From positions 29,514,001 to 29,578,000 of the forward strand of contig NC_086097.1 of the NCBI RefSeq assembly GCF_963921235.1: a DNA stretch of 64,000 bases, in the 5' to 3' direction. Positions 161 to 59,175 of this stretch are shown one piece after another. Positions within the stretch are counted from its first letter, which is position 1. Every line of letters starts with the position of its first letter. The notes under the pieces are model-generated. The model was not told where the DNA came from. It did not search any database and saw nothing but the letters and a program-made list of their open reading frames with translations. Made by a program: the position numbers and the translations under genes. Source of the DNA: Mobula hypostoma (taxonomy: Eukaryota).

Positions 161-2322
161 CTGTGGACAAATGTGTGACTATCAAAATTAAACAACATTG
201 ATCATTGAATAATCACCACCTAAACTCATCTGTCAAGTGTAAAATGAAGTCCAGGTGAGATGCAGTGTGAAGGATTTTGGTCACGTGTGCATCCAATTAC
301 TATTGCCCCCTCATTCCCAACCTCACCTGCAAATACCTAGTCCACAACCTCATAAGTTTCCTTAAATATCTGCAATTCCTTTGCTTCAAACCTTTAACAT
401 TTCCACTGATCTTGAAAGTTTCCAGTATTTTCTGCATTTACTCTAAACTTGCCTCACTTGTCCTAAAGACATTGAGGAATAGTGTCATATATTGTTAGGT
501 AGTATTTCTATGAAACATCAAGAAAAAAAACTTGCATCTTTTTAAACTCTCCATGATCACAGTATTTCAGAAGTAACTTTGAACCAATGAAATTTTCTGA
601 AACAGTAACTACTGGAAAACAAAATCTGGTTTTCTAAAATGAAAACTGATTCCTCTCCACATCCACATGAGCTAACACTAATATTCAGAAATAAATACTA
701 TGTATCAAGTGCTTCTGCAAAAGGAATTACTTTTATTTAGAATAACCACCACCAAACTCAATCAATTAGATAGCAACAAACTGAGAAAATATGGTAGGGT
801 TAGAAAACAAAAGAACTAAACAAAGTGTACCCAGCACATCAGAATATGGCCAATTGTCAAGCATATGCTGTCTGTCCTGCAGAGCTGATGTATGGTTAGA
901 ATGACAATAAAGTTTTTTGAATCTTAAATAAGCATCATTTTTCATCAAGGCAGAAAATGCACATTCAAATCACTTTCCATGCTGAGGACTTGATCACAGA
1001 AAAGGCACAACGAAGTTGGTGAATAAAATATTTCCAGGGCTCCTAATTCAAAGAAAAGCATTAGTGCTAAACAGTGATTCAGCTGGCAATAATACAAGTA
1101 TTAACTGCCAATTCCCAACTTCCTTCATGAACTACTACACTCCTCCAGGTGAAAGAGCTTCCAGAGAGATGGTTACATCATGTAAAATCTGTAACACAGA
1201 AGACCCATCAACCCATCTTATCCAGACCAGTGAAAAAAAACTACACAACCCAATCCAGACTTTGAACTTGCACTTGTGCTGGTCACAGTTCTTACAAGTA
1301 GTGTATATAAGATACAAGATATATAAATCAAATGTGGTGAATGTCAGACAGCAAGTACCTGACCCATCACTTTCAGTGCCTCAACAACCTTCTAATATCT
1401 CAATCAATTGCTCTGGATTACCAACAGAAAGCATCCTTTCCAGATGTGTCATGGCTTGATCTGGCAAGTGCTCTACACATGACTGCAAGAACCAACAGTT
1501 GCAGACACAGTTTGGCATGCCTGACCAAAACAGCCTGACCTCTGTGGACTATCCGCATTTTTCGCTACCTTGGTAAAGAAGCCAACATAATTAAAGACCT
1601 CATCCATCCTGGACATCCTCTTCTCTTTGCCCAATTAGGAAGATATAAAAACCTGCAAGTACGTACCCTTCTAGTACAATAAAATGGACTCAAACTCACA
1701 ATCTACCTCATTACGGCTTGCATCTTATTGTCTGCTGCACATCTTTATTTTGCATTTTGTTATTGTTTTTATCTTGTACTACCTCAATGCACTGATGGAA
1801 GCATGCAAAACAAAATTTTTCCATTGTATCTCAGTACATGTGACAATAGTAATGCATTTTATCAAATCTTCTCTGCACTCACTAGACGTTTTGGGTGGAG
1901 ACCTTTCTTTGGGACTGGAAAGAGACAGCCAATGGTGAGGTGGAACAAGAGTGGCTGGGTGATGGGTAAATCCAGGCAATGTAATCTGATAGAAAAGAAC
2001 AGTGGATCATTGAACAAAAGGATGCAAATGGACAGTGGAACTGGAAGGAAGAATGTGCGAGTGAAAAGCAGATTAACGGGGTGGGAGAGGAGAAACAAGT
2101 AGGGGGGCATTGGGATGAGAGAAAATTGGGGTGGGGGACAGAAAGAATGCAAGATGTTTTTCCTCTAATATTTTCTGCTAGTAAAGTGCAAAAGATGTGG
2201 TTTAACTACTATTGTACACAGACTGGCATTACCAGATTGAGTGCTTCAAGTTTTGACTGCAATCAGCCATCTGTATCTGCGCCAGTGAAAACTATGACTC
2301 AGCCTAATCCCATCTTCCAGTA

Positions 2323-4413
2323 CACTCAGACCCAGCATAACGCTACCCCGCAGAGTGTGCTGATTTGTTACAACACGGTTATTCAATTCTCTTTGGAAAT
2401 TTTTAAAAATGACAAAAATTCATCCAAAACAACTTAGGATTTCTCATGACCAGTTGCCATTAAACATTCGATCAGCCAGTGAGCTCTGAGCCACTCACAG
2501 CCGATCACTTATTAATTCATGTTCTTGCTCCCTAACCAATTTATTCTACTTTTCCACCCATGATGTCTGGAAAGTGGCCTGCAACTTCCAGTGAGGGTAG
2601 TACATCTAAGATGTCTAGGAAAAGCATTAGCATCAATGTGAAACTACAAGTGATACAGCATTTGGAAGCTGGTGAGCATCAGGTTGATGATGGTCCACTT
2701 TGAAATTGGGTACATCAACGATCAGAACAATTATAAAAAATGCTGACAAGATTAAAGCTTCTGCAACAACAACCTCAAAGTTACCATCAACAAACGTCAT
2801 TTGCTTGGAAAATAAAGGAAAATAAATATATGGGTGGATGATCAAACACAATGAAACATGCCCCAAGCCAGCTGATAATAATGGAAAAGACAAAAAGCAT
2901 CTTCAATCATATTCAAGAAACCAACCACTGCCAGCAGAGGTTGGTTTCACAGATTACTCTCCGTAGCATACCTATCTCTGATGAAGCAGCTAGCGCAGAC
3001 AGCAAGGCAGCCCAGGATTTTCCTGCAACACCGATGGCCATAATCATAAAGGACAATTATCCTCCCAGGCTTGTCTTCAATGTGGATGAAACGGGCCTAC
3101 TTTGGGAAAGAATGCCTTCTTGTACTTTCTACTCCCAAGAAGAGAAACATGCATCTAGGTTCAGGCTGCAAAGGACTAGTTAACTCTTTTGCTAATAGGC
3201 AATGCTAAAGGCAACTAAGGCTTTTCATTGTGTATTATTCTGAAACACCAAGAGCAATGAATGACATTTTAAATTCAGGTTTACCAGTGATTTGGAAATC
3301 AAACAAGAAAGCCTGGGTGACCACTGATGTTTTCCAAAATTAGTTTGTTTCACATTTTTGTCCAGTACTGAAGCGGTATTGAGGAGCATGACTTCGAATC
3401 TAAAGCAGTGATGGGGCTTGATAATGCCCCAGGCCATCCTGAGAATCTCGACACGCTTCAGACCTGCATTCCTGTAGATGTGGTTTACCTTCCACCCAAC
3501 ACCACTTCATTACTCCAACCAATGGATCAAGGAGTAATATCGAATTTTAAAGCCTTCTACCTTCACTGCACATTCAAGGAAATAAAAGGCCAAGGCAAAC
3601 AATCCATTAGGCAATTTCAGAAAAACTATATCATGAAAGCTGTAGACAGCATCAGAGTAGTCTGGGATGAAGAAACTTCGAACTGCATGAACCGAGTGTG
3701 GAAGAAGCTTGCAACGATATCCCAGGATTTCAAGCAGAACCAATCAACCAAAACATTGTTGAACTGGTCAATAAAGAGGGATTAGAGAATATTAATGATG
3801 ACGAAGTTGAAGAGTTACTGCATTCTCATATTGAGAGCCTTAATAACGAAGAGCTTCGGGTACTGTCAGGGCAACACATCCTGGGTGAATCTGAAGACAC
3901 GGATGGAAAAGAGGAAACATCAGCAAGAAACCTTACCACAAAATTCCTCAGCACTAGCATGACCACGATCACACAAATCATGGACCAGTTCATCACTAAT
4001 AACCCTGACTGGGAGCGAATCAATAAGGCAAACAGGTGTTCGTGACATGATATTCTGCTATCAAGAACTGCTTCATGAGAGGAAACTTAAGAAAAGGCCA
4101 TCAAATCTCGACGTCTACTTGACGAAGCCGCCAAAGTTAGAGGAGGACCCACAGCCCGGTCCCTCCACTACGATGTAAGCACCACCTGTTTCCCACCACT
4201 GATGTACAGGTTAGCCCTAGTTACTCCATGAATTACTATGTATACATAAAATAATAAATCATAACTCGGGCTTGACTTTTTTTAAAAAATCAGACACACA
4301 TATCAATTTACATAATGTTATATGACCTCGCACAGCATTGATTTACGTAGCGCTCCACCTCTGAAAAACCCATCCTCAGTGTCTGAGTATCAGTACTAAG
4401 CAGGGTCTGAGTG
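2323..4413 (+). mobile_element. Tigger/pogo (Tc1-mariner superfamily) DNA transposon, decayed, both TIRs present
   Basis: TA-CACTCAGACCC at 2321 and GGGTCTGAGTG-TA ending 4415; CENP-B-like HTH start (RKSISINVKLQVIQHLEAG) near 2560; DDE motifs FNVDETGL, DNAPGHP, PPNTTSLLQPMDQGVISNFKAFY; many frameshifts. Confidence 0.92.
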
Positions 4414-57230: not shown

Positions 57231-58654
57231 AGAGCTTTGTGGAAGATAATCAGAATCAGGTTTTATCACTGACATGATGTGAAATTTATTGTTATACAGC
57301 AGCAGTACGGTGCAAAGGTATCAAAATATACTGTATATGGTACAATAATAAATCATCATGTGCCACACCATGGCCACAATTGCTCTTGACAAACTTTGGT
57401 ATGGAAGTGGTTTGCCATTGCCTTCTTTTGGGCAGTGTCTTTACCAGATGGGTGACCCCAGCCATTATCAATACTCTTCAGAGATTGTCTGCCTGGCGTC
57501 AGTGGTCGCATAACCAGGACTTGTGATGTGCACCGGCTGTTCATACGACCATCCACCAGCTGCTCCAATGGCTTCCGTGACTCTGATCGGGTGGGGGTTG
57601 GCCAAGCAGGTGGTGCACCTTGCCCAAGGGTGACTGGCAGGCTAGCGGAGGGAAGGAACTCCTTTGCATCTCCACCCCACACCCGACAATAATAAATAGT
57701 GCACGAGAAAGGAGTAGAGGTAGCATCTATGGACCATCCAGAAATCTGATGGCAGATGTCTTCAGGCTCCAGTACCCCGTCCCTGATGGTAAGTATGAGG
57801 AGAGGGCATGTCTCTGATGGTGAGGGTGCTTAATGACGGATGCCACCGTGTTGAGGCACTGCCTTTCAAAGACGTTCCCGATGGTGGGGAGGCCCGTGCT
57901 GTTGATGCATCCGTGTCTTCAACCTTCTGCAGCCCCTCGTGATTCTGTGCACTGGAGAGTGGAAATGGCTAATATGAGAGGGCATGATCTTAAGCTGCTT
58001 GGAGGAAAGTTATCGAGGCAAGAAGTAGCTTTTTATTTACACAGAGTGGTCATCGCGTGGAACACTGCTGGGGGGTGGTGGTAGAGGCAGATGCATTAGG
58101 GACATTTAAGAAACTCTTAGATAGGCACGTGGTTGATAGGAAAATGGAGGCCCAGTAGTAGGGAGGGGGTAGATTGATCTTAGAAGGTTAAACGGTCATC
58201 ACAGCATTGTGGGCCGAAGGGCCTGTGCTGAGCGGTACTGTTCCACGTTCTACTTCAGCCGACACCCCACCACAGTGTGGGTTCTCACAGAATCAGTCAG
58301 CACTGCACTCCCAAGGAGACAATCAGCTCCCTACAGACAGTCCCGACACTTCACAATCAGCAGTAAAACATGAATAGGTCAGGCTGAAAGTACCATGGAA
58401 CCATTCCCAAGAAACACCAACATAGAATCACACTGCTCAGTCTACTCTACCTGCACCATATCCAACAGTCCAAGCCCTCTACTTCCTATAACAGCCTTTT
58501 TTCTCCTATTTAGAAACTGTTTGAATTTGCTTTTGCTATTCAAGTACTGTAGTAAAGAATATCTTGCAGATGTGGAATCAGCTCGGAATAATTTGGAAGG
58601 GAAATCACCAGCAGAGGGCAGAGTGAGTCCACTGACAGCAAGTCATAAGCAGAA

Positions 58655-59175
58655 GAGATTCTGCAGAATCTGGAAATCCAGAGCAACACGCACAAAGTGC
58701 TGGAGGAACTCAGCAATTCAGGCAGCATCTATGGAGGGGGAATAAACAGCCAATGTTTTGGGCTGAGACCCTCCATCAGGACTGGGGGGGGGCAGAAGGC
58801 GGTGGGGGAGGGGGAGGAGTACAAGCTGGCAGGTGATAGGTGAGGTGAGGGTGGGGGAGATGAAGTAAGAAGCCGGGAGGTGATAGGTGGAAAAGGTAAA
58901 GGGCTGAAGAAGGAGGAATCTGATAGGAGAGGACAATGGACCATGGAAGAAAGGAAGGGAGAAGGGCACTAGGGAGAGGTGATGGGCAGGCGAGGAGAAG
59001 AGAACGGAGAATGGAAGAAGAGAGAAGGGGGAGGGGGAAGAAAGTACCAGAAGTTGGAGAAATCGATGTTCATGCTGTTAGGTTGGAGGCTACCCAGACA
59101 GAATAGGAGGTGTTGCTCCCCCAAGCTGAGTGTGCGTGGCCTCATCACGACTGATGAGTCCAAGTAGGAATGGGA
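58655..59175 (-). mobile_element. Penelope-like 3' end and pLTR with mutated hammerhead
   Basis: LGEQHLLFCLGSLQPNSMNIDFSNF; core reads CTGATGG...AAAA. Confidence 0.85.

What the first reader, a model, noticed from the sequence alone, without database searches (positions are those of the whole stretch)
1880..59175. About 20 Penelope-derived minimal hammerhead ribozyme motifs in 64 kb, several with intact cores
Seen: one dispersed repeat recurs on both strands, with consensus CAGTC CTGAYGA A GGGTCTCGGCCC GAAAC GTC GACTG followed by ...GATGCTGCCTGACCTGCTGAGTTCCTCCAGCATTTTGTGTGT. Approximate copies: 1885, 5856, 6100, 7953, 9236, 9730, 10427, 10941, 11086, 20406, 21911, 26331, 31045, 42227, 43269, 47641, 48554, 50572, 58747. 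Core nucleotides are intact at 11086(+), 26331(-), 42227(-), 43269(+) and 48554(-). Established: this is the minimal type I hammerhead of Penelope pLTRs and metazoan non-LTR retrozymes, whose near-absent palindromic stem III (ACGU) is thought to work as a dimer. Three loci (26.3, 42-43, 58.7 kb) are joined to GIY-YIG-end coding sequence, tying the motif to Penelope-like elements. Inference: this density implies a very large genomic family of self-cleaving RNAs. The intact minus-strand copies lie in the sense orientation of the calmin pre-mRNA.
Basis: partly seen in the sequence, partly recalled or inferred. Interest (0 to 1): 0.75.

Follow-up and report, generated by a model that had tools for sequence, protein, structure and literature searches.

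The report
Decayed Penelope ribozyme relics in ray
The repeat is the broken-off end of a Penelope-like jumping gene in a ray genome and carries a known tiny hammerhead ribozyme motif, but only one of 20 copies still has the complete shape and the rest are likely dead relics, so this is ordinary.

Summary
Observation confirmed. All 19 listed copies exist, plus a 20th (29675+). The five named copies are the only ones with all 11 core letters (0 of 100 shuffles match).

They are 3' ends (pLTR plus tail) of an endonuclease-bearing, Neptune-type Penelope-like retrotransposon in a myliobatiform ray's calmin region. Four loci run into GIY-YIG coding sequence. Eight head-to-head inverted insertions occur, five with 12-16 bp target duplications. 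The motif is the minimal type I hammerhead described in 2014.

"Intact" is overstated. Only 26331(-) keeps core, both stems and palindromic ACGU; 42227(-) has a G-U at 10.1-11.1; the other three have broken helices. Core positions decay like their neighbours (13/99 vs 33/207), CpG changes dominate, and window copies show no covariation (383/500 shuffles as high), whereas related motifs from metagenome contigs do (0/500). Calmin-intron copies split 5 sense, 6 antisense, with no close same-strand partner for a dimer. No tandem arrays, so not retrozymes.

A function in calmin pre-mRNA is unlikely. One lead: inverted insertions carry the long tail at one end only, suggesting coordinated two-site priming. 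The scan reported the same kind before in another genome (e1-7857333).

The parts
26273..27520 (-). 5'-truncated Penelope-like element (about 1.25 kb): RT C-terminal region, CX3CxxC linker and GIY-YIG remnant (27510-26620, with stops), pyrimidine-rich UTR, hammerhead, short 3' end; flanked by a target duplication at 26262-26272 and 27521-27531
26331..26368 (-). The only structurally complete minimal hammerhead: 11 of 11 core letters, stem I 5/5, stem II 4/4 with G10.1-C11.1, ACGU; H17 = U at 26336; calmin intron, sense
42165..43403 (.). One head-to-head inverted insertion of the younger subfamily B: minus arm about 42165-42874 (GIY-YIG at 42881-42567, short 3' end), plus arm 42875-43403 (long tail); 15-bp target duplication at 42150-42164 and 43404-43418
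42227..42264 (-). Near-complete minimal hammerhead: core intact, ACGU, G10.1-U11.1 wobble; predicted to be sequestered by an upstream hairpin
43269..43306 (+). Core letters intact, stem II 3/4, stem III AUGU; antisense to calmin
11086..11123 (+). Core letters intact, helices broken (I 3/5, II 2/4, ACAU); right arm of a probable inverted pair with 10941
10941..10978 (-). Decayed motif (3 core changes); left arm of the probable inverted pair 10845-11181
48554..48591 (-). Core letters intact, helices broken (I 3/5, II 2/4, ACAU); calmin intron, sense
47584..47775 (.). Subfamily B inverted insertion: minus tail-only arm with short end, plus arm truncated inside the core (motif 47637-47674, C3 and U4 lost) with long tail; 16-bp target duplication at 47568-47583 and 47776-47791
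58650..59175 (-). Truncated element: GIY-YIG end (59175-59050), UTR, motif 58747-58784 with 2 core changes, long tail
20077..20459 (+).
21814..22120 (-). UTR, motif 21911-21948 (U16.1 lost), long tail
5855..5978 (+). Solo end beginning at the motif (5855-5892, 4 core changes), target duplication at 5844-5854 and 5979-5989
6018..6136 (-). Solo end truncated inside the motif (6099-6136)
7834..8027 (.). Inverted pair: minus long tail, plus motif 7954-7991 (2 core changes); 11 of 13 target duplication
9167..9342 (.). Probable inverted pair: minus motif 9236-9273 (3 core changes) and plus tail-only arm; no clear target duplication
9670..9767 (-). Solo end with internal deletion; motif 9730-9767 (G12 lost)
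10334..10513 (.). Probable inverted pair: minus arm truncated inside the motif (10427-10455) with long tail, plus tail-only arm with short end
1880..1917 (-). Old decayed motif (3 core changes), with UTR homology upstream
29675..29820 (.).
31032..31165 (+). Solo end, motif 31032-31069 (4 core changes), long tail
32660..32785 (.). Inverted pair of tail-only arms (long left, short right); 13 of 14 target duplication
48037..48117 (+). Tail piece that begins at about the H17 position of the motif
50142..50196 (.). Inverted pair of tail-only arms (long left, short right); 10 of 12 target duplication
50408..50651 (+). UTR and motif 50572-50608 (3 core changes)
12010..53869 (-). Host context: 13 calmin-like coding exons (first coding exon not found in the window); 11 of the 20 motifs lie in its introns or upstream of the first exon found, 9 lie 3' of the stop codon

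Best explanation
The 20 motifs are 3' ends of an endonuclease-bearing Penelope-like retrotransposon scattered through a ray's calmin region, each carrying a copy of the element's minimal hammerhead motif that has likely decayed neutrally since insertion. Shown by sequence: GIY-YIG coding end, then UTR, then hammerhead, then a conserved ~60-nt segment, then one of two 3' ends about 34 nt apart; 5' ends truncated at scattered points; target duplications of 11-16 bp; head-to-head inverted insertions. Inferred from the Anolis element (PMC11167929): the element's protein cuts both target strands and starts reverse transcription inside the RNA at one of two sites just downstream of the hammerhead. 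Every insertion therefore begins with this segment, and early termination leaves mostly 50-300 nt pieces, which explains the density. Inferred: the hammerhead works only in master-element RNA, where tandem pLTRs pair through ACGU, probably with protein help, to process the element's transcript. Solo copies lack a partner; the isolated 26331 and 42227 motifs are predicted to fold as an inactive rod in which G5-G8 pairs with 15.2-17. Selection acts on the masters, not on the inserted copies.
For: Four loci continue into GIY-YIG coding sequence (tblastn; Pfam GIY-YIG E 6e-5 for 42567-42887); homologous proteins carry RVT_1 and GIY-YIG hits (most below the curated cut-off). Target duplications at p_null<0.03 for 8 of 18 insertions tested, two perfect at 15 and 16 bp. 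Two 3' ends also appear in other runs: loose ends with heterogeneous flanks behind 43369/43370 and 43403/43404. Neutral decay: core non-CpG mismatches 13/99 vs non-core 33/207, p 0.61, in the 11 untruncated copies; 31/144 vs 52/298, p 0.30, in all 16 non-B copies; 37 of 44 changes at CpG columns are C>T or G>A; 3 intact cores observed among 16 against 3.3 expected. No covariation among 18 window copies: score 0.191 vs 0.210 shuffled, 383 of 500 shuffles as high. Selection on masters: between subfamilies the 42227/26331 motifs are 87% identical against 56% for the UTR; contigs of other subfamilies break off at 43270-43272 and 43305-43309, the motif's edges; related motifs from metagenome contigs covary strongly (95 double-sided cells vs 42 shuffled, 0 of 500). 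Literature: monomers inactive, dimers weak, most genomic motifs solitary and probably from truncated elements (PMC4209133).
Against: No full-length element with two pLTRs lies in the window and no genome was held, so the master is not seen. The motif-versus-UTR contrast is weaker in the other two pairings (74% and 79% vs 58% and 60%), and coding ends are equally conserved (74-77%). The neutrality tests have few copies and would miss selection on a single copy; 26331 is the best-preserved motif although its downstream segment is among the most diverged from the majority (21%), which may only reflect a different subfamily. Insertion boundaries for the duplication search were set by eye, so those p values are optimistic; 10 of 18 gave none. 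The two-site priming step is borrowed from a Poseidon-clade element. No cleavage or expression data for these copies.
Confidence: 0.88

Rival explanations
1. Some intronic sense copies (26331, perhaps 42227) are live ribozymes that cut calmin pre-mRNA, pairing through ACGU with another family transcript or helped by the element's protein, and so tune calmin output.
For: 26331 has every structural feature and stems I and II form with probability about 0.42-0.49 in context. It is sense to calmin. The family is very abundant in four related runs. The Anolis motif cleaves when the element's protein is added (PMC11167929).
Against: One complete copy in 20 fits neutral decay. The nearest same-strand motif with an intact core is 42227, 15.9 kb away with four coding exons between; the nearer 21911 has lost U16.1. 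The ACGU duplex is worth only -1.7 kcal/mol, and the monomer and dimer minimum-energy folds are not the hammerhead fold. H17 is U. No strand bias (5 sense, 6 antisense). In Anolis RNA-seq no reads began or ended at the cleavage site; 8 of 9 Xenopus dimers did not cleave (bioRxiv 10.64898/2026.07.22.740005).
Confidence: 0.05
2. The short copies form their own non-autonomous family (retrozyme or SINE-like) that amplifies through ribozyme-cut, possibly circular RNA.
For: Most copies are only 50-300 nt. One tail piece (48037+) starts at about the H17 position. Retrozymes are reported in one chondrichthyan and derive from pLTRs.
Against: No tandem array holds the motif (0 of 17 rows). The 5' ends are scattered: 1 of 9 motif-less pieces starts near H17, the others at model columns 41-97. 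Longer copies run continuously into UTR and coding sequence. The motif is minimal, not canonical.
Confidence: 0.05
3. The hammerhead resemblance is chance in an unrelated repeat.
For: No Rfam hammerhead match at E<=1; no covariation among window copies.
Against: All four diagnostic features of the published motif are present in the best copies; it sits where pLTR hammerheads sit; 79 of 97 distinct metagenome matches have a Watson-Crick first stem I pair although stem I was not in the pattern.
Confidence: 0.01

Closest known systems
[quoted passage not shown]
   Same: CUGANGA, one extra nucleotide, G10.1-C11.1, GAAA, palindromic 15.2-16.2 without helix III, 5-bp helix I; mostly solitary or on opposite strands 100-700 bp apart; thousands per genome (about 4,000 in coelacanth, 9,000 in Xenopus).
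   Different: Helix II is 4 bp, not the 7-8 bp of the Schistosoma families. Subfamily B has G10.1-U11.1 in all 3 window copies and in 55-87% of depth in four runs. No ray family is named in the parts read.
Neptune/Nematis-type EN+ Penelope-like elements (Craig et al. 2021, PMC8557442)
   Same: C-terminal GIY-YIG preceded by a CX2-5CxxC linker, strong 5' truncation, inverted 5'-truncated arm, 30-40 bp tail at one end only.
   Different: Only fragments here; no full ORF or partial tandem. Target duplications reach 15-16 bp against 8-10 bp in Adineta (PMC3846280). RT phylogeny not run.
PAc, Poseidon element of Anolis carolinensis (Frangieh et al. 2024, PMC11167929)
   Same: Hammerhead followed by two 3' ends that bound a tail; AT-rich flanks; both target strands used.
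   Different: Different clade (the ray element has the cysteine linker). That paper saw no difference in start site between strands in vitro, whereas the ray's inverted insertions pair one short with one long end.
Metazoan non-LTR retrozymes (PMC7229834; bioRxiv 10.64898/2026.07.22.740005)
   Same: Type I hammerhead related to pLTRs, high copy number.
   Different: Retrozymes are tandem 150-450 bp repeats, typically with canonical motifs and circular RNAs; here dispersed, non-tandem, minimal, and continuous with coding sequence.

Membership tests
PLE minimal type I hammerhead | Core CUGANGA ... GAAA ... UH | tested here: met
   5 of 20 copies have all 11 letters; majority line has them all
PLE minimal type I hammerhead | No helix III; palindromic 15.2-16.2 (ACGU) | tested here: met
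   ACGU in 26331, 42227, 47637, 1880, 6099; mostly ACAU elsewhere, consistent with CpG decay
PLE minimal type I hammerhead | Extra nucleotide between 9 and 10.1, G10.1-C11.1, helix I of 4-5 bp | tested here: met
   All met in 26331; subfamily B has G10.1-U11.1
PLE minimal type I hammerhead | Covariation of helices I and II across families | tested here: met
   0 of 500 shuffles reach the score in 2 window plus 35 metagenome motifs; not seen among 18 window copies alone
PLE minimal type I hammerhead | Self-cleavage as a dimer or with protein | not testable with these tools
   Needs a cleavage assay; laid runs were contigs, which cannot show RNA ends
EN+ Penelope-like element | RT followed by C-terminal GIY-YIG endonuclease | tested here: met
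   Fragments at four loci match proteins with RVT_1 and GIY-YIG hits
EN+ Penelope-like element | pLTR with hammerhead, optional 30-40 bp tail, inverted 5'-truncated arm, target duplication | tested here: met
EN+ Penelope-like element | Full ORF between two direct pLTRs (partial tandem) | tested here: inconclusive
   None in the window; no genome held. Absence is expected of truncated copies
Neptune clade (versus Nematis) | CX2-5CxxC linker upstream of GIY-YIG | tested here: met
   CKSKCYTC upstream of VIYCIRCTRCGLLYIGET in 26854-27465(-); definition; shared with Nematis
Neptune clade (versus Nematis) | RT phylogeny groups with Neptune references | not tested
   No named reference RTs were fetched; Neptune is preferred because only Neptune and Poseidon were found in vertebrates
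Non-LTR retrozyme | Head-to-tail tandem units each with a hammerhead | tested here: not met
   0 of 17 tandem-repeat rows overlap a motif
Non-LTR retrozyme | Expressed as small circular RNA | not testable with these tools
   No raw RNA reads offered
Rfam hammerhead families | Covariance-model match | tested here: not met
   No hammerhead family among 7 matches at E<=1

The most novel reading that the evidence does not exclude
Rays carry tens of thousands of still-complete minimal hammerheads in host introns, and these act as half-ribozymes: an intact sense copy such as 26331 in calmin is cut only when it pairs through ACGU with another family transcript or binds the Penelope protein, so that transposon activity directly severs host pre-mRNAs genome-wide.
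Probability: 0.04. Interest if true: 0.7.

Novelty: new member of a known kind. Interest (0 to 1): 0.2.

Why it matters
As found, it extends a 2014 result to a ray family and shows that counting core letters overstates the number of working ribozymes about fivefold (5 vs 1 of 20). Two details could be of use to Penelope specialists. First, clean inverted insertions have 15-16 bp target duplications and one short plus one long 3' end (5 of 5 clearly readable pairs); if this holds genome-wide it would indicate that a protein dimer primes the two target strands at different RNA sites, a step the in vitro work left open. Second, the young subfamily has a G-U in place of the conserved G10.1-C11.1 pair and a predicted upstream hairpin over the core, a natural test case for protein-assisted refolding. 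Only the low-probability case, cutting of host pre-mRNA, would matter outside the field.

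Tried and rejected
Rfam scan of the window: 7 weak matches, none a hammerhead, all below gathering scores. Own genome: none held, so no genome-wide count; extrapolating one window (1-2 complete motifs per 64 kb, 16-31 per Mb) is only a guess. 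Sequencing runs: no RNA holder listed; the four runs laid were contigs, so cleavage ends, strand and level could not be read, and table 6 was empty. Only the best-supported rows were shown there (35 variant rows, 91 joints and 1,567 loose ends hidden), so absence of a variant at core positions or of 5' ends at the cleavage site cannot be claimed. Viral contigs: one pattern match (L123), not followed up; no sign of a virus carrying the ray element. Target duplications: none found for 10 of 18 insertions. Upstream anti-core hairpin: significant only in the two non-independent subfamily B copies (3.2% and 1.2% of shuffles), not in 6 other copies (two of these were folded one base out of register), and found after the fact; in metagenome motifs 14 of 103 reached p<=0.05. 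It stays a lead. Retrozyme and chance readings rejected as above. Paper searches: 'Penelope + shark + hammerhead ribozyme' gave 1 review; 'Mobula + genome assembly + Penelope' gave none; 'Penelope-like + twin priming + target site duplication' gave 2 unrelated papers; searches added nothing ray-specific. The Lunse paper was not held. PMC12602865 has no mention of hammerhead or pLTR. Supplements of the cited papers were not opened and may list chondrichthyan families; Repbase/Dfam could not be searched.

Full report
Observation. The repeat is real. A profile from 12 window copies found 29 hits at E<0.03 among 33 at E<=1, against a best E of 0.27 in five shuffled windows. Rfam has no matching hammerhead model at E<=1.

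Host. The large exon at 33476-34825(-) is 91% identical to a Mobula birostris protein and 84% to Hypanus sabinus calmin-like, so the window is from a myliobatiform ray. Thirteen coding exons map to the minus strand between 53869 and 12010. Eleven motifs lie in introns or upstream of the first exon found (5 sense, 6 antisense) and nine lie 3' of the stop codon; the extent of the 3' UTR is unknown.

What the repeat is. At 27510-26620(-), 42881-42567(-) with 42878-42982(+), 59175-59050(-) and 20077-20148(+) the repeat is preceded by coding sequence matching proteins with RVT_1 and GIY-YIG hits. The longest fragment has a CX3CxxC linker before the GIY-YIG motif, the mark of Neptune and Nematis elements (PMC8557442 passages). 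The order is endonuclease end, pyrimidine-rich UTR, hammerhead, conserved ~60-nt segment, then a short or a long 3' end. 5' ends are scattered. At least two subfamilies are present; B (42227, 43269, 47637) is younger, its copies 92-98% identical.

Insertion anatomy. 42165-43403 is one insertion: two head-to-head arms between a perfect 15-bp duplication. 47584-47775 has a perfect 16-bp duplication. In all, 8 of 18 tested insertions gave a duplication at p_null<0.03, with boundaries set by eye. Eight head-to-head pairs were seen; two of them join two motif-bearing arms, so the 20 motifs come from at most 18 events. Read by eye, five pairs (42-43 kb, 47.6, 32.7, 50.1, 10.4) have one short and one long end; two more (7.9, 10.9) have a long or partly long tail at one end only; 9.2 kb is unreadable. 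Contigs from related organisms show loose ends with heterogeneous, AT-rich flanks behind 43369/43370 and 43403/43404, 34 nt apart, and summed depth falls more than 100-fold after 43406 in all four runs. This matches the 30-40 bp tail often present at one end only and the two internal start sites of the Anolis element, which cuts and extends both strands (PMC11167929). Five of five short-plus-long pairs would arise by chance about 3% of the time if each strand chose freely with equal odds; this hints at coordinated priming but is a small sample.

The motif. The best copies have all four features that PMC4209133 lists for minimal hammerheads: family consensus, extra nucleotide after A9, G10.1-C11.1, palindromic 15.2-16.2. 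The same architecture was pulled from metagenome contigs with a pattern that left stem I free: in 97 distinct matches the first stem I pair is Watson-Crick in 79, using all four pair types, and mean pairing is 2.7 of 5 against 1.5 shuffled. On 35 of these plus two window copies the covariation score is 0.597 against 0.188, 0 of 500 shuffles (the 35 were picked from the 28-nt matches among the first 80 loci, and related sequences can inflate this test). The class of motif is thus a real structured RNA, already published.

State of these copies. One of 20 is complete (26331), one nearly (42227), three keep core letters but not helices, fifteen have lost core letters. Core positions mutate like non-core positions (13/99 vs 33/207 in 11 untruncated copies; 31/144 vs 52/298 in 16 non-B copies; the three B copies, 29675 and 48037 were left out). 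Of 44 changes at CpG columns 37 are C>T or G>A. Three intact cores among 16 compares with 3.3 expected. Among 18 window copies (10427 and 50572 omitted for gaps) there is no covariation: 383 of 500 shuffles score as high. Between subfamilies the motif is better kept than the UTR (87, 74, 79% vs 56, 58, 60%), and contigs of other subfamilies break away at its edges, as expected if selection acts on masters.

Could any copy cut? Minimal motifs were inactive as monomers and weak as dimers; the Anolis motif cut only with protein, was not needed for insertion in vitro, and left no ends in RNA-seq; 8 of 9 Xenopus dimers did not cut. Folding gives the isolated 26331 and 42227 motifs a rod in which G5-G8 pairs with 15.2-17, and the ACGU duplex only -1.7 kcal/mol. 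In context stems I and II form with probability 0.42 for 26331 and about 0 for the other four. For 42227 an 11-bp hairpin from the upstream 20 nt covers the core. The nearest same-strand intact core to 26331 is 15.9 kb upstream, across four coding exons. In three runs a contig covers the calmin exon 43535-43728 exactly and without intron flanks, which suggests spliced transcripts in relatives, but those runs are not on record as RNA and say nothing on cleavage.

Comparison and verdict. It works like, and belongs to, the minimal hammerheads of EN+ Penelope-like pLTRs; Neptune clade is likely but the tree was not run. It is not a retrozyme. Searches found no paper on a ray family, but retrozymes and PLEs were surveyed in one chondrichthyan and this scan noted an intact shark element before (e1-7857333; unchecked). 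What I saw of each paper: PMC4209133, parts 1-2 of 4 (abstract, results, discussion, part of methods); bioRxiv 10.64898/2026.07.22.740005, parts 1-3 of 5; PMC11167929, parts 1-2 of 4 (whole main text, part of methods); PMC8557442, PMC3846280, PMC6765202, PMC7229834 and PMC12602865, passages only; Lunse et al., nothing beyond the review's citation; no supplements. Hammerhead numbering, and the statements that GUU sites and G10.1-U11.1 cleave less well, are recalled and come from no call. New member of a known kind; interest 0.2.

Noticed in passing
window 42165-43403, 47584-47775, 32660-32785, 50142-50196, 10334-10513: Every clearly readable inverted insertion pairs one short and one long 3' end, with 12-16 bp target duplications in four of the five; suggests the two target strands are primed at different RNA sites.
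   Followed up: partly
window 42248-42278(-) and 43255-43285(+): Subfamily B has an upstream sequence predicted to form an 11-bp hairpin over C3-G10.3, and G10.1-U11.1 as the majority state in four related runs; possible off-switch for the ribozyme.
   Followed up: partly
window 42165-42665(-) vs 42875-43369(+): The two arms of one insertion differ at 30 of 494 aligned positions (7 CpG-type, 11 other transitions, 12 transversions) while the 15-bp duplication is perfect; they may come from two different template RNAs.
   Followed up: partly
window 47633-47648: The inversion junction holds an 8-nt inverted piece of the motif's own stem I and core, joined through a 2-nt microhomology; resembles the palindromic junctions described in Adineta elements.
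   Followed up: no
window 5100-5900: GC-rich island (67-70% GC), probably a promoter; by recalled vertebrate synteny DICER1 follows calmin. The 5855(+) copy at its edge keeps all its CpGs, unlike most copies.
   Followed up: no
window 41681-42164: 52-bp minisatellite, 9.3 copies at 92%, ending at the 42 kb insertion; the unit continues at 43404 after it, so the element landed in the array's last unit.
   Followed up: partly
window 40212-40341: A 130-nt piece 83% identical to the element's UTR with no motif or tail beside it.
   Followed up: no
window 62087-62153: 67-nt near-palindrome scoring 40.8 bits to Rfam mir-9256 (gathering 80); likely a small DNA-transposon relic (recalled resemblance).
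   Followed up: no
window 2842-4045: Broken frames that read like a Tigger/pogo DDE transposase (recalled resemblance).
   Followed up: no
window 14788-15966(+), 37258-39446(-), 27614-28336, 55348-56070: Long CR1/L2-type LINE reverse-transcriptase frames (recalled resemblance); the 26.3 kb element sits inside such a LINE.
   Followed up: no
window 50852-51609, 53262-53647, 59569-59956: Further tandem arrays of 86, 29-48 and 38 bp units.
   Followed up: no
L020 401-481 and L070 401-481: Metagenome loci with two motifs back to back on opposite strands 53 nt apart, the same inverted arrangement in another organism.
   Followed up: no
proteins P0017, P0019, P0027: Penelope RT-endonuclease sequence is annotated as isoforms of host genes (divergent kinase 1C, chitinase domain protein, mucin-2) in ray genomes; probably gene-model artefacts.
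   Followed up: no
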